This document shows, piece after piece, positions 47,176-49,461 of a stretch of 64,000 nt of DNA. Made by a program: the position numbers and the translations under genes. The notes under the pieces were generated by a model. It was not told the origin of the DNA. It did no database searches and saw only the letters and a list, made by a program, of their open reading frames with translations. Numbering within the stretch: position 1 is the first letter of the stretch; every line of letters starts with the position of its first letter. This stretch comes from Ostreococcus lucimarinus (lineage: Eukaryota), in the NCBI GenBank assembly GCA_000092065.1, contig CP000586.1; one strand, 5' to 3'.

Positions 47176-49461
47176 TTACGCCGTCTTGTCGTCGGCGTCC
47201 GCTTCATGCTCCATTTGCGCGAGGGCAAACGGAAACAAGATGGCAACAGAGGTGTAATCTTCAAGGGCGCAGCCGAGGATGTTTCTGGCGTTGCGCAATT
47301 CGCGGCGAACGTTGGCGACGCAGAAGATGAAGATGCAACAGAAGAGCCACGCGACGGCGTGCGTGTTCGCGCCGGCGTGCGTGGACGCCATCAAACCGAT
47401 GAAAGTCCAGAGAACGCCGGTGATGGCGGCGGCATTAATCATAGCAAACTGGTAGTCGGCTCCCATGGCGACCTTGGACTTGAGAATGGCGTCGAACGGG
47501 TAGATGAAGTTCTTCAAAACGCACAAAAGTCGTTCCATCTGCACGGGGGCGCTGGCGCCAGCCGTGTCCGGGTTGAAACGCTCGAGGAAGTCGAAGATGC
47601 ACGTGTTGAAGCCCTTGCGCTTGCGACGGTATTCTTCATCACCACCTTCATCTTGCAGTGCGCGCCAGAGCGCCAGACACATAAAGTTGAGCGCGATAGT
47701 GTAAGGGAAGCCGGCGACGATGGAGACGGCTTGAACCATCTTCAAACCACCGCTGTAGACGAGCGCACTAGCGAGCGCGCCTTCGGTGAAGCACCAGTAA
47801 ATCTTTTGCAAAACCGGCGGGCTTTCGTAGCCCATGGCAGAGATCAAATCGTCGACGTACGAACCAGAGTCCGAAGACGTGATGAAGTAAAGCGTGACGG
47901 CGATGAGGATCAAAGCTTGGAACGGGCGCGCCAAAGAACCGTACGGTTCGACGACGTCAAGGATGTGATCAGGACCAGCTCTGCAAGACAGTGGGTAGTA
48001 ACCAGCCTGTTGCAGTTGCAAACCGGCGGCGTATTTCGCCAACGTCGTGTCGAGCTTGCCCTTCGCATAGCCAAACGCGCTGCAGTCCACGGAGCCGCTG
48101 CCTTTCGACCAGTCAACAGTAGATGAGTCACCGAGGGCCAACTCGGCGACGCGTTGCATCTTGATCCCGAGAGAGCCGAGGACGGTGAGGTAGAAGAAAC
48201 CGAACAATACGGGCGCGACGAACGCACCCTTGATGAGTTGGCCGACGGTTCTGCCGCGAGAAATTCTGGCGATGAACATGCCGACGAACGGCGCCCAGGA
48301 GATCCACCAACCCCAGTAGAAGATGGTCCAATCGTCCATGAAATAGGGTGACGTCGTCGCACCATACATGTTTGCGGTGTCCGCGGTGTTGCCCGCGGTT
48401 GCGCTCACAGCGTCGATGATGTTCTTTTCCGCGTGGCGGCCGATGGCGTATTGCGTCCACGTTTTCGACGTGCTTTTCCACGTGCCGTCATCGTGAGTCC
48501 ATCCGTTCTTGCCACCCTTGAGGACGGCATTCAACACAGGCCAAGCATCGCAATCCCATCCGACGACGGTGACCCATTGCAAGTAGTGGCCGATGGATTG
48601 AACGACGCTGTTCATGAGAAACATGGGGTCGTCGGCACAGATGACGCCGAAGAGGAAGATCAAGCCGATACTGAAGGTGAGCTTGGACAGTTTCCTGATG
48701 CCATTCTTCAAGCCACTGACCACAGAAATGCAAGCGACGCCGGTGATGACCCAAATGATGAGACCCTTGGTCGTGTCGGATGTAGCGCTGATGTCGCTGT
48801 TGAGACGATTCATCGCGGTGGCGATCGTCGTGACGCCGAGTCCGAGAGACGTGCAAACGCCAAAGGTGGTGCACGAGATGGAAAGCGCATCGATCAAATC
48901 ACCGATGAGACCGTTGACGTTTTCACCCAAAAGCGGGTAGAAGGCCGCACGGATGGTCATGGGACGACCGTGACGGTAGCAAATGACCCCGAGCGTGATT
49001 GCGACCAGAACATAAGGAATCCAACCGTGGATACCCCAGTGGAACAGCGTCATGAAGATGGCTTGTTGAGCGCGTTGATCATCGTTCACGATGGGAATCT
49101 TTTGCGGATTGTAGTAGTTCATGCGGTAATACCACATCGGTTCGGCGACGCCGTAGGTGTACAAACCGACGCCGATTCCGCACGCGAACAACATGGAAAA
49201 CCACTCGTAATCGCTGAAGGCGGGCTTTTCGTCGTCACGCCCGAGCTTGACGTCTTTGTACTTCGTGAAAAGCAAACCGATGATGAAGATGAACCACACG
49301 TCTTGGGTGAGGATGTACAACCACGTCCAGTTGACGGTGACCCACGCTTGCCAACCCTTCACCTCCGTCGCGGCGTTGATGCCGGTCGTCGTGGCCCAGA
49401 TGATGAACCCCCAAAGCACGGCCGAGGCGATGCCAGAGCTCACCCAGTTCATGCGAAGCAT
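47176..49461 (-). CDS. BCCT-family transporter (betaine/carnitine/choline; glycine-betaine/DMSP-type osmolyte uptake) with a long C-terminal extension.
   Basis: BCCT signature '[36 protein letters not shown]' plus 12-TM hydropathy. 761 aa, ATG start. Confidence 0.85.
   Translation of the reverse strand: [761 protein letters not shown]

What the first reader, a model, noticed from the sequence alone, without database searches (positions are those of the whole stretch)
47176..49461. Bacterial-type BCCT osmolyte transporter (betaine/choline/DMSP class) encoded in an algal nucleus
The canonical BCCT tryptophan-box signature ([25 protein letters not shown]) sits in a 761-aa protein with a long eukaryote-style cytoplasmic tail. 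BCCT carriers are overwhelmingly prokaryotic. In eukaryotes they occur sporadically in marine algae, where they are candidates for glycine-betaine/DMSP uptake. This suggests an ancient horizontal acquisition now embedded among ordinary host genes, with host-like GC3.
Basis: partly seen in the sequence, partly recalled or inferred. Interest (0 to 1): 0.6.

Follow-up and report, generated by a model that had tools for sequence, protein, structure and literature searches.

The report
Unannotated algal betaine/DMSP-type transporter gene
This is a real, expressed nuclear gene of the green picoalga Ostreococcus lucimarinus for a betaine/DMSP-type osmolyte transporter. It belongs to an already described eukaryote-specific branch of the BCCT family, so it is not a bacterial-type import, although this copy seems to lack a protein record in the reference annotation.

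Summary
The ORF at 47176-49461 (-) with the Trp-box is real (Pfam BCCT E=3e-142). It is only exon 2. A 135-nt exon 1 (49630-49764) and a 168-nt GT-AG intron precede it, giving an 806-aa protein.

Two poly(A)-type environmental transcript contigs encode exactly this spliced protein and match the window at 99.5-100%.

Neighbouring proteins are identical to O. lucimarinus CCE9901 entries. UniProt accessions run consecutively across the gap that holds this gene, so it appears to have no protein record.

The protein groups with eukaryotic BCCT carriers (the "PaDT" family, Simo et al. 2026; Ngugi et al. 2020). In an NJ tree, 34 eukaryote-type sequences split from 78 prokaryotic ones with 100/100 bootstraps. 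Core identity to the window protein is 47-90% for the former and 17-39% for the latter.

The family also shares two loop insertions with an invariant Cys pair. Its "tail" is not plainly cytoplasmic: it holds two TM-grade helices and is remotely PLAC8-like.

The window gene is a paralogue, 66% identical to the validated O. tauri DMSP transporter, with identical binding residues. The likely function is Na+-coupled betaine/DMSP-class uptake, but the substrate is untested.

A lineage-specific bacterial acquisition is not supported.

The parts
46862..49846 (-). Transcribed region (mRNA) of the BCCT gene: 5'UTR, exon 1, intron, exon 2 and a 3'UTR of about 314 nt
   Evidence: Transcript contigs L165 and L166 align to window 49846->49626 (99.5%) and 49462->46862 (100%). 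L165 ends in a poly(A) run.
49630..49764 (-). Coding part of exon 1: MNGGDMSDTTKPSKADDALDFKQEANIKRFVRANRWVSLDIAGIP, the N-terminal cytosolic segment carrying the conserved RFVRxNRW motif
   Evidence: Found by frame translation. It runs continuously into exon 2 in L165/L166. It is 79% identical over 145 aa to the N-terminus of the transcript-derived P0002. The motif is conserved in the A1 alignment. The exon DNA is 81% conserved to both copies in the sister-species locus L010.
49462..49629 (-). Spliceosomal intron, 168 nt, GTGCGT...CGCAG, phase 0
   Evidence: Predicted. It is absent from transcript contigs L165/L166. A homologous intron is absent from the sister-species transcript L009 when compared with genomic L010.
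47176..49461 (-).
47653..49431 (-). 12-TM BCCT (LeuT-fold) transporter core, ORF residues 11-603
   Evidence: Pfam PF02028 matches in three stretches. The AF2 model has pLDDT 85.6 and pTM 0.85. Foldseek finds BetT, TmaT, BetP and CaiT with target-normalised TM-scores of 0.81-0.91.
49165..49185 (-). TM3 ACGIGVG, the G-x-G-x-G motif. The position equivalent to BetP G153 is Gly, as in Na+-coupled carriers.
   Evidence: Alignment to BetP 4ain and BetT 9vbp; BetT has Asp at this position. Coordinates.
49012..49044 (-). TM4 [11 protein letters not shown]: aromatic-box residues equivalent to BetP W189, W194 and Y197
48247..48321 (-). TM8 tryptophan box [25 protein letters not shown]
48340..48555 (-). 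Eukaryote-specific insertion in the TM7-TM8 loop (ORF residues 303-374). It is variable, with a predicted beta-hairpin, and is extracellular by BetP topology.
   Evidence: It forms a gap between Pfam/PDB alignment stretches. Parts of it fall in columns occupied in eukaryote-type but not prokaryotic sequences. Model strands at 318-322 and 328-334.
47914..48132 (-). Eukaryote-specific insertion in the TM9-TM10 loop (ORF residues 444-516), with an invariant Cys460/Cys493 pair that may form a disulfide
   Evidence: Cys460 and Cys493 are present in 34/34 eukaryote-type and 0/78 prokaryotic sequences. The motifs around them are conserved.
47860..47886 (-). TM10 FITSSDSGS: residues equivalent to the BetP Na2 site (T467, S468) are conserved
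47197..47613 (-). C-terminal PLAC8-like module (ORF residues 617-755): cytosolic linker, TM13 (670-692), TM14 (700-718) and an amphipathic C-terminal helix (732-755)
   Evidence: Pfam PLAC8 scores E=2.6e-4 in the window protein, below the cut-off. It is hit in 24/26 family members, best E 1.2e-8, and several matches span the whole profile. hhalign against vertebrate PLAC8 gives P=7e-5, with controls at P 0.095-0.81. pLDDT is mostly 88-95 across residues 641-750, dipping to 71 in the 691-700 loop. Hydropathy peaks lie at about 681-684 and 705-711. A tail HMM hits 34/34 eukaryote-type and 0/78 prokaryotic proteins.

Best explanation
Window 46862-49846 (minus strand) is a two-exon nuclear gene of Ostreococcus lucimarinus CCE9901. 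It is transcribed, spliced and polyadenylated, and encodes an 806-aa membrane protein predicted to have 14 TM helices. The protein belongs to the eukaryote-specific BCCT clade now called PaDT, most likely clade A, which holds the Mamiellophyceae. The 12-TM LeuT-fold core keeps the aromatic Trp/Tyr box, the G-x-G-x-G motif with Gly at the BetP-G153 position, and the Na2-site Thr/Ser. The most likely mechanism is therefore Na+-coupled alternating-access import of a small zwitterionic onium osmolyte such as glycine betaine or DMSP across the plasma membrane. The protein has four eukaryote-only additions. These are a short cytosolic N-terminus with an RFVRxNRW motif, two extracellular loop insertions (one with an invariant Cys pair), and a C-terminal PLAC8-like TM hairpin plus amphipathic helix. 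The window gene is paralogue type 'X'. The experimentally validated O. tauri DMSP transporter (BCCT-1, CEG01428) and the O. lucimarinus protein used in that paper (XP_001422299) are type 'Y'. Shown here: gene structure, expression, family placement, architecture and conserved binding residues. Inferred: substrate, ion coupling, membrane location and the role of the added modules.
For: Gene and expression. The ORF and motif are present. Exon 1 and the intron were predicted. The exact 806-aa spliced protein is encoded by two JGI contigs that match the window at 99.5-100%, lack the intron, and in one case end in poly(A).

Organism. The neighbouring thiolase, DDX1 and RING proteins are exact O. 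lucimarinus CCE9901 entries. The annotated TPR and IPPT models share the 90% clusters of the window ORFs.

Family. Pfam BCCT gives E=3e-142. The AF2 model has pLDDT 85.6, and Foldseek gives target-normalised TM-scores of 0.81-0.91 to BetT, TmaT, BetP and CaiT.

Eukaryotic clade. The named hits among the top 120 are eukaryotic (Mantoniella, Guillardia, Nephroselmis, Hemiselmis, Cymbomonas), and most of the 120 cover the query full-length. In the NJ tree the eukaryote/prokaryote split has 100/100 bootstraps, with core identity 47-90% against 17-39%. The tail HMM hits 34/34 eukaryote-type and 0/78 prokaryotic proteins. Published trees agree.

Mechanism. The BetP-equivalent residues W189, W194, Y197, W373, W374, W377, G149/151/153 and T467/S468 are conserved. 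They are identical to those of P0010, which I identify as O. tauri BCCT-1.

Function of relatives. O. tauri BCCT-1 restored 35S-DMSP uptake in E. coli MKH13, and glycine betaine blocked DMSP uptake in Bathycoccus.

Paralogue assignment. In L157 the BCCT gene lies directly upstream of genes in the 90% clusters of CEG01429-01431, and of a P450 identical to CEG01432. The Y-type gene P0163 lies beside a Myb gene in the 90% cluster of XP_001422340, on a 149-kb CCE9901 chromosome.
Against: No transport assay exists for any X-type protein. One of the two O. tauri paralogues (BCCT-2, type not determined here) gave no DMSP uptake in E. coli, and it may be the X-type orthologue. Subcellular location is not known. 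BetP residues W362 and T250 are replaced by Phe and Val. The residue numbering and the roles of BetP residues come from my knowledge of the BetP literature, not from a tool. The bacterial sample in my tree was the best 80 of the first 600 candidate stretches, so it is not exhaustive. The eukaryotic origin of the unnamed metagenomic homologues is inferred.
Confidence: 0.8

Rival explanations
1. One reading: a bacterial-type BCCT carrier acquired by horizontal transfer into this algal lineage and since domesticated.
For: The BCCT family is far more diverse in prokaryotes. The genome scan hit its 600-stretch limit in GTDB genomes. The eukaryotic distribution is patchy; for example, M. pusilla and Dunaliella lack the gene.
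Against: Eukaryote-type sequences from several supergroups form one clade with 100/100 support. The closest prokaryotic matches are only 27-34% identical (39% in one segment) and lack both loop insertions and the tail. The gene has a spliceosomal intron and host-like GC3. It is syntenic across Ostreococcus species. Two published phylogenies place eukaryotic BCCTs apart from prokaryotic ones. One ancient transfer at the root of the whole eukaryotic clade remains possible, but that would not be specific to this alga.
Confidence: 0.04
2. The X-type paralogue is an active carrier, but DMSP is not its substrate. It has sub-functionalised towards glycine betaine, choline, another onium solute or trimethylamine-type compounds, while the Y-type handles DMSP.
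For: X and Y types are only 64-68% identical and are kept as separate genes in several Ostreococcus species. O. tauri BCCT-2 gave no DMSP uptake. The best PDB sequence matches are a trimethylamine transporter and BetT choline transporters.
Against: Every aligned binding-site residue is identical between the window protein and the validated Y-type protein. The BCCT-2 failure could be an expression or folding problem in E. coli, and I could not show that BCCT-2 is X-type.
Confidence: 0.35
3. The carrier works mainly in export or in an internal membrane, for example releasing or compartmentalising self-made DMSP or betaine, rather than in uptake from seawater.
For: BCCT transport is reversible, and the PaDT authors raise export as a possibility for strong DMSP producers. 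No localisation data exist.
Against: Ostreococcus cultures take up 35S-DMSP at sub-nanomolar concentrations. The 45-aa N-terminus is acidic and hydrophilic rather than transit-peptide-like (read directly from the sequence). The conserved Cys pair in a loop that is extracellular by BetP topology fits a surface protein.
Confidence: 0.1
4. The gene is a decaying or non-functional duplicate, which would explain why it has no protein record.
For: It is apparently absent from the CCE9901 protein set. A second, annotated BCCT exists in the same genome.
Against: The 806-codon frame is intact and the intron is correctly spliced. Polyadenylated transcripts occur in two environmental samples. The exact ORF is indexed in 63 blocks of the collection, and its 90% cluster holds 254 members. 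All catalytic motifs are conserved. Orthologues at 76-82% identity occur in other species.
Confidence: 0.02

Closest known systems
PaDT / O. tauri BCCT-1 (CEG01428), the picoalgal DMSP transporter (Simo et al., Nat Commun 2026, PMC13547399)
   Same: It has the same eukaryote-specific BCCT clade and the same architecture: N-terminal exon plus single intron, 12-TM core, two loop insertions and a PLAC8-like tail. The aligned substrate and Na+ site residues are identical.
   Different: It is only 66% identical, belongs to a different paralogue group (Y rather than X) and sits at a different locus. DMSP uptake was shown for BCCT-1 only. The second O. tauri gene gave no uptake.
BetP of Corynebacterium glutamicum (Na+/glycine betaine symporter; PDB 2WIT, 4AIN and others)
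   Same: It shares the LeuT-fold 12-TM core (target-normalised TM-score 0.83-0.90), the Trp box in TM8, W189/W194/Y197 in TM4, G-x-G-x-G in TM3 and T467/S468 in TM10.
   Different: Identity is about 25%. BetP has neither loop insertion, no Cys pair and no TM13-14. Its C-terminus is a cytosolic osmosensing helix, whereas here it is a PLAC8-like membrane hairpin. BetP W362 and T250 are not conserved here.
TmaT trimethylamine transporter (8ZW8) and BetT choline transporters (9VBP, 8YBQ): the closest solved structures by sequence
   Same: They give the best PDB sequence scores, E 3.5e-78 to 7.9e-60, and the best fold matches.
   Different: Identity is 22-28%, they are bacterial, and they lack the eukaryotic additions. 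BetT 9VBP has Asp at the BetP-G153 position (the H+-coupled type), while the window protein has Gly.
PLAC8 family (PF04749): animal PLAC8/onzin, plant PCR and FW2.2-like proteins, and the PLAC8 domain of the MCA channels
   Same: The C-terminal R..lR..y.I.G..eD....P..l.Q motif aligns (hhalign P=7e-5). Plant PCR proteins are described as having a two-TM-helix layout (PMC12467093). Recruitment of PLAC8 into multidomain membrane proteins is known for MCA (PMC8049495).
   Different: The Cys-rich signature (CCxxxxCPC or CLxxxxCPC) is absent from the tail. The Pfam score is below the gathering cut-off in the window protein, 22.3 against 34.4 bits. Here the domain is fused to a transporter, and phmmer with the tail found no clear stand-alone relatives.
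BCCT gene of the Micromonas polaris prasinovirus MpoV-44T.A (Viruses 2026, PMC13431477)
   Same: IMG/VR giant-virus contigs carry full-length homologues that include the tail, at 48-51% identity.
   Different: The viral-type group is intron-less and has changes in the aromatic box: the BetP W189 position is Asn or Thr, and in P0021 one Trp of the WW pair is lost (WWISW becomes WGAAW). I did not confirm that these contigs are the published virus.

Membership tests
BCCT family (Pfam PF02028, TC 2.A.15) | Significant match to the family profile above the curated threshold | tested here: met
   PF02028 E=3e-142, 474.9 bits against a cut-off of 27. The NCBIfam bcct model TIGR00842 gives E=3.5e-110 but 368.8 bits, below its bacterial-tuned cut-off of 407.55.
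BCCT family (Pfam PF02028, TC 2.A.15) | 12-TM LeuT-type fold | tested here: met
   AF2 model with pLDDT 85.6 and pTM 0.85. Foldseek target-normalised TM-scores of 0.81-0.91 to BetT, TmaT, BetP and CaiT.
BCCT family (Pfam PF02028, TC 2.A.15) | Tryptophan-box signature in TM8 and aromatic residues in TM4 | tested here: met
   [28 protein letters not shown] and [11 protein letters not shown] align to the BetP Trp box and to W189/W194/Y197.
Na+-coupled betaine-type BCCT carriers (BetP-like), as opposed to H+-coupled BetT or the CaiT antiporter | Gly at the BetP-G153 position of G-x-G-x-G, and Thr/Ser of the Na2 site in TM10 | tested here: met
   ACGIGVG has Gly where BetT 9VBP has Asp. FITSSDSGS keeps the T467/S468 equivalents. 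The meaning of these residues comes from the BetP literature, recalled from my own knowledge and from Ngugi 2020.
Na+-coupled betaine-type BCCT carriers (BetP-like), as opposed to H+-coupled BetT or the CaiT antiporter | Measured Na+-dependent betaine uptake | not testable with these tools
   This needs a transport assay.
Eukaryotic BCCT / PaDT clade (Simo et al. 2026; Ngugi et al. 2020) | Groups with eukaryotic BCCT-like proteins to the exclusion of prokaryotic BCCTs | tested here: met
   NJ tree on 460 core columns with 34 eukaryote-type and 78 prokaryotic sequences; the split has 100/100 bootstraps. Named relatives include Mantoniella, Guillardia, Hemiselmis, Nephroselmis and Cymbomonas, which matches the composition of PaDT clade A.
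Eukaryotic BCCT / PaDT clade (Simo et al. 2026; Ngugi et al. 2020) | DMSP uptake activity, or induction by DMSP | not testable with these tools
   Shown only for O. tauri BCCT-1 and, by transcription, for the M. commoda gene.
Orthologue of the validated O. tauri PaDT (BCCT-1, CEG01428) | Same paralogue group and locus as CEG01428 | tested here: not met
   CEG01428 corresponds to the Y-type P0010, the gene directly upstream of the CEG01429-01432 genes in L157. The window protein is X-type, 66% identical, and sits at the RING-TPR locus.
PLAC8 family (PF04749), C-terminal module only | Profile match above the Pfam gathering score | tested here: not met
   Window protein: 22.3 bits against a cut-off of 34.4, E=2.6e-4. 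Relatives score 19-34.4 bits, and only P0052 reaches the cut-off. However, 24/26 members match at E<=0.01, and hhalign gives P=7e-5 against shuffled controls at 0.095 or higher.
PLAC8 family (PF04749), C-terminal module only | Cys-rich CCxxxxCPC / CLxxxxCPC signature | tested here: not met
   No such motif occurs in residues 604-761 or in the family consensus. The tail cysteines are poorly conserved, 3-21%.
PLAC8 family (PF04749), C-terminal module only | Two hydrophobic helices (a membrane hairpin) between the N- and C-terminal motifs | tested here: met
   Helices at 670-692 and 700-725 with pLDDT about 88-95. Kyte-Doolittle peaks of 1.76 and 2.02 are comparable with the core TMs.
Recently transferred bacterial gene | Nested in a bacterial clade, intron-less, with atypical composition or context | tested here: not met

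The most novel reading that the evidence does not exclude
All eukaryotic BCCT/PaDT carriers are fusion proteins whose last two TM helices and C-terminal amphipathic helix derive from a Cys-less PLAC8 domain. In this reading the module replaces the cytosolic osmosensing C-terminal helix of bacterial BetP and acts as a built-in regulator of transport, for example through membrane-tension or osmotic sensing, or through control of oligomer assembly. The full-text search of the paper library found no paper that mentions both PLAC8 and BCCT, so the fusion appears undescribed. The window gene would also be an overlooked second PaDT-family paralogue of O. lucimarinus, whose substrate may differ from that of the validated copy.
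Probability: 0.3. Interest if true: 0.55.

Novelty: new member of a known kind. Interest (0 to 1): 0.38.

Why it matters
BCCT/PaDT carriers are now held to make eukaryotic phytoplankton a sink for dissolved DMSP and betaines, which bears on marine sulfur and nitrogen budgets.

This copy is expressed in the sea, yet it appears to have no protein record in the O. lucimarinus reference set. It belongs to a different paralogue group from the one validated experimentally. Surveys built on annotated proteomes may therefore under-count these carriers, and assigning "DMSP transporter" to every family member is premature.

The conserved PLAC8-like membrane module and the disulfide-type loop insertion are concrete, testable differences from the bacterial models (BetP) on which mechanistic inference for the algal proteins currently rests.

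Tried and rejected
(1) I searched for the window's own exon1-exon2 junction in metagenome contigs, first with the exact sequence and then with a degenerate pattern. Both gave 0 hits. This was uninformative, because that collection evidently lacks the transcript assemblies. The exact-protein look-up later found them.

(2) I first assumed the window gene was the orthologue of the validated PaDT. Accession adjacency rejected this: CEG01429-01432 lie next to the Y-type P0010, and XP_001422340 lies next to the Y-type P0163.

(3) I tried to tell BCCT-1 from BCCT-2 by the amplicon sizes in the paper (2455 and 2623 bp). This was inconclusive.

(4) The paper's supplement is not held as text, and no other paper cites the two accessions.

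(5) Fold search against AFDB was unavailable.

(6) The PDB holds no structure related by sequence to the tail or to PLAC8, so no tail-only model was made.

(7) phmmer with the tail against 1.84 billion representatives gave only 41 hits. The short ones look like gene-model fragments of BCCT proteins rather than a stand-alone family.

(8) The bacterial sister of the eukaryotic clade in my NJ tree was a single actinobacterial sequence under midpoint rooting. I do not regard it as meaningful.

(9) I checked whether the 149-kb-chromosome locus has outlier GC. The profile was not conclusive.
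Full report
**Observation.** It contains [25 protein letters not shown] at ORF residues 381-405. Pfam BCCT (PF02028) scores E=3e-142 in three stretches. NCBIfam BCCT models match strongly but fall below their bacterial-tuned cut-offs. The best solved relatives by sequence are the trimethylamine transporter TmaT, BetT, BetP, DddT and CaiT. GC3 is 0.753, inside the range of most neighbouring ORFs, 0.67-0.81.

**Gene structure.** The ORF is only the second exon. Many homologues start with an extra N-terminal segment that carries a conserved ...NIxRFVRxNRWxSxD... 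motif running straight into LLRxNWV. Translating upstream of the ORF shows the same peptide in another frame. It is followed by GTGCGT and separated from the ORF's first codon by 168 nt ending in CGCAG, in phase 0. This gives:
- exon 1 coding part at 49630-49764;
- intron at 49462-49629;
- exon 2 at 47176-49461;
- an 806-aa product.

The exact 806-aa conceptual protein is on record in two JGI contigs of 2.8 kb. They align to the window in two blocks, 49846->49626 at 99.5% and 49462->46862 at 100%. The intron is missing, and one contig ends in a poly(A) run. The gene is therefore transcribed, spliced and polyadenylated in natural populations, with a 3'UTR of about 314 nt. A sister-species transcript (L009) lacks the homologous intron present in genomic L010. 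The PaDT paper also mentions a single intron in the O. tauri genes.

**Organism and annotation status.** Exact look-ups of neighbouring window proteins return O. lucimarinus CCE9901 entries on an 818,664-bp chromosome: thiolase XP_001418570/A4RZH1, DDX1 XP_001418333/A4RZH0 and RING XP_001418573/A4RZH7. The annotated TPR (XP_001418337/A4RZH8, 328 aa) and IPPT (XP_001418572, partial) models are shorter than the window ORFs but sit in the same 90% clusters.

The UniProt accessions follow gene order. RING (A4RZH7) and TPR (A4RZH8) are consecutive, although the BCCT gene lies between them. I infer that this gene has no protein record in the reference set. This is an inference from accession continuity and was not checked on the GenBank record itself. 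In line with it, the ORF's database copies come from metagenomes and carry no accession.

**Eukaryotic context.** The flanks encode an LHC protein, a 4646-aa dynein heavy chain, tRNA isopentenyltransferase, PDCD2-like, RING, TPR, SET-domain, DDX1-like and SUN-domain proteins. The window is collinear with a sister-species locus over about 19 kb. Contamination is excluded.

**Family placement.** Most of the 120 best database hits cover the ORF full-length. The named ones are eukaryotic: Mantoniella, Guillardia, Nephroselmis, Hemiselmis and Cymbomonas.

A scan of one genome per bacterial and archaeal species found many BCCT genes, but the best are 27-34% identical (39% for one segment). They stop at about query residue 605-650 and span about 450-480 codons. 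They therefore lack the insertions and the tail.

On 460 well-occupied core columns, an NJ tree of 34 eukaryote-type and 78 prokaryotic proteins separates the two sets in 100 of 100 bootstraps. Core identity to the window protein is 47-90% against 17-39%. The prokaryotic sample is the best 80 of the first 600 candidate stretches, so it is not exhaustive.

Two papers reached the same conclusion with ML trees. Ngugi et al. [quoted passage not shown] Simo et al. 2026 found that 361-418 eukaryotic sequences form a group distinct from prokaryotic BCCTs, in five clades, with clade A holding Mamiellophyceae, cryptophytes and prymnesiophytes. A single ancient transfer at the root of the whole eukaryotic clade cannot be tested here.

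**Architecture.** An AlphaFold2 model built on a 26-sequence alignment is confident: pLDDT 85.6 and pTM 0.85. It superposes on BetT, TmaT, BetP and CaiT with target-normalised TM-scores of 0.81-0.91, but only 0.55-0.61 when normalised by the query. About 40% of the protein is therefore extra. The extras are conserved across the eukaryotic family:
- The N-terminal motif encoded by exon 1.
- An insertion between TM7 and TM8 (ORF residues 303-374). It is variable and contains a predicted beta-hairpin.
- An insertion between TM9 and TM10 (residues 444-516). Cys460 and Cys493 are present in 34/34 eukaryote-type and 0/78 prokaryotic sequences. By BetP topology, which I take from established knowledge, both loops face outside, so a disulfide is plausible.
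- The 158-residue tail.

**The tail.** It is not a loose cytoplasmic tail. It holds helices at 641-653, 656-665, 670-692, 700-725 and 732-755, with pLDDT mostly 88-95. It has two hydropathy peaks as strong as those of the core TMs. An HMM of the tail finds it in all 34 eukaryote-type proteins (E<=1e-20) and in none of the 78 prokaryotic ones.

Pfam PLAC8 (PF04749) hits the tail weakly in the window protein, at 22.3 bits against a cut-off of 34.4. However, it hits 24 of 26 family members, with best E 1.2e-8, sometimes over the whole profile. It also hits independent fragments. hhalign of the tail alignment against a vertebrate PLAC8 alignment gives score 31.7 and P=7e-5. One reversed and eight column-shuffled controls score 8-15 with P 0.095-0.81.

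The Cys-rich PLAC8 signature is absent. I therefore call the module PLAC8-like, not a PLAC8 member. The library search found no paper that mentions PLAC8 together with BCCT. The PaDT paper mentions neither PLAC8 nor the C-terminus.

**Mechanism.** Alignment to BetP, read with the published BetP numbering that I recall from the literature, shows the following:
- The G-x-G-x-G motif is conserved (ACGIGVG). It has Gly at the G153 position, where H+-coupled BetT has Asp.
- W189, W194 and Y197 are conserved ([11 protein letters not shown]).
- W366, W371, W373, W374, W377, F380, R387 and R392 are conserved.
- The Na2-site T467/S468 are conserved (FITSSDSGS).
- W362 is Phe and T250 is Val.

This supports Na+-coupled alternating-access transport of a small onium zwitterion. 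Substrate, coupling ion and location are inferences.

**Which paralogue?** Ostreococcus-type sequences fall into identity groups:
- X: the window protein, P0002, P0003, P0004 and P0006, 76-90% identical to one another.
- Y: P0007, P0008, P0009, P0010 and P0515, 79-98% identical to one another.
- Two further groups: P0011/P0012 and P0013/P0016.
- Between groups, identity is 60-68%.

The validated O. tauri BCCT-1/PaDT is CEG01428. In O. tauri-type contig L157, the Y-type gene P0010 lies directly upstream of four genes. Three belong to the 90% clusters of CEG01429, CEG01430 and CEG01431, and the fourth, a P450, is identical to CEG01432. P0010 is therefore CEG01428.

The O. lucimarinus Y-type gene (P0163, 741-aa ORF) sits beside a Myb gene in the 90% cluster of XP_001422340, on a 149,386-bp CCE9901 chromosome. 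The paper's O. lucimarinus protein XP_001422299 is 41 accessions away. That spacing fits an adjacent opposite-strand gene on a chromosome with about 80 genes, given the plus-then-minus numbering seen.

The window gene is therefore the other, X-type paralogue. It is 66% identical to the validated carrier, with identical binding-site residues. One O. tauri paralogue (BCCT-2) gave no DMSP uptake in E. coli. I could not determine whether BCCT-2 is X-type, so DMSP as the substrate of the window protein stays open.

**Copy number and locus vary among species:**
- A sister species has X and Y in tandem at the RING-TPR locus.
- O. lucimarinus has only X there.
- O. tauri has Y next to SpoU.
- Contigs L162-L164 carry an X-type gene (P0004) at that same SpoU-adjacent site. 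Their flanks are 94-98% identical to the O. tauri contig. P0004 is about 64% identical to P0010, with no near-identical stretch anywhere along its length.

**Verdict.** The bacterial-type/HGT interpretation is not supported. The family and its probable function are already published. What is new here:
- the corrected two-exon 806-aa model, proven by transcripts;
- the apparent absence of this paralogue from the reference protein set;
- its assignment to a paralogue group different from the validated PaDT;
- the PLAC8-like membrane module and the loop Cys pair shared by all eukaryotic members.

Noticed in passing
L157:893-3133 versus L162:6712-8997 (O. tauri-type contigs): Two contigs have flanks 94-98% identical in DNA, including exon 1 and the downstream SpoU, DsbD, AP-3 mu and P450 genes. 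Yet they carry different paralogue types at the same site: Y-type P0010 in L157 and X-type P0004 in L162. The two proteins are about 64% identical, with no near-identical stretch along their length. This looks like a paralogue replacement or gene conversion confined to the intron plus exon 2.
   Followed up: partly
L007, L008 and L010 (sister-species loci) versus window 45978-51126: A sister Ostreococcus species has two tandem BCCT genes between the TPR and RING genes: X-type (781-aa ORF) and Y-type (745-aa ORF). Each has its own exon 1 homologue. O. lucimarinus has only the X copy there, and its Y copy lies on a 149-kb chromosome.
   Followed up: partly
L091-L096 (IMG/VR contigs, e.g. L096:943-3420): Six contigs filed as giant-virus sequences encode full-length, intron-less eukaryote-type BCCT proteins that include the PLAC8-like tail, at 48-51% identity. 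L096 has 31-43% GC and compact ORFs with no Pfam hits. The related proteins P0018 and P0021 have lost aromatic-box residues (LFHWG becomes YYQNG or YYQTG; in P0021 WWISW becomes WGAAW). This fits the BCCT gene reported in Micromonas polaris virus MpoV-44T.A.
   Followed up: partly
window 27968-41905 (-): A single uninterrupted 4646-aa dynein heavy chain ORF has clearly lower GC3 (0.594) than its neighbours (0.67-0.81). It accounts for the low-GC stretch at 30-40 kb of the window. It is curious in an alga that, as far as I recall, is described as non-flagellate.
   Followed up: no
window 15346-21823 (+): Trm732/THADA-like TPR domains are split between ORFs 15346-17403 and 19718-21823. Between them lie two lower-GC3 ORFs (0.53-0.56). 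This is probably one long gene with introns or a divergent middle part.
   Followed up: no
P0005 (Logan contig, 2679 nt): This 789-aa protein is 100% identical to the window protein over roughly its last 350 residues, from about window residue 411 on. Its first half is only 46-66% identical to the window protein and 51-66% to the Y-type P0010. It is either an assembly chimera or a natural recombinant.
   Followed up: no
window 46749-47175 and 46862: The BCCT mRNA ends at about 46862, only 114 nt upstream of the start codon of the co-oriented RING gene (46748). The RING promoter must therefore overlap the BCCT 3'UTR and terminator region.
   Followed up: no
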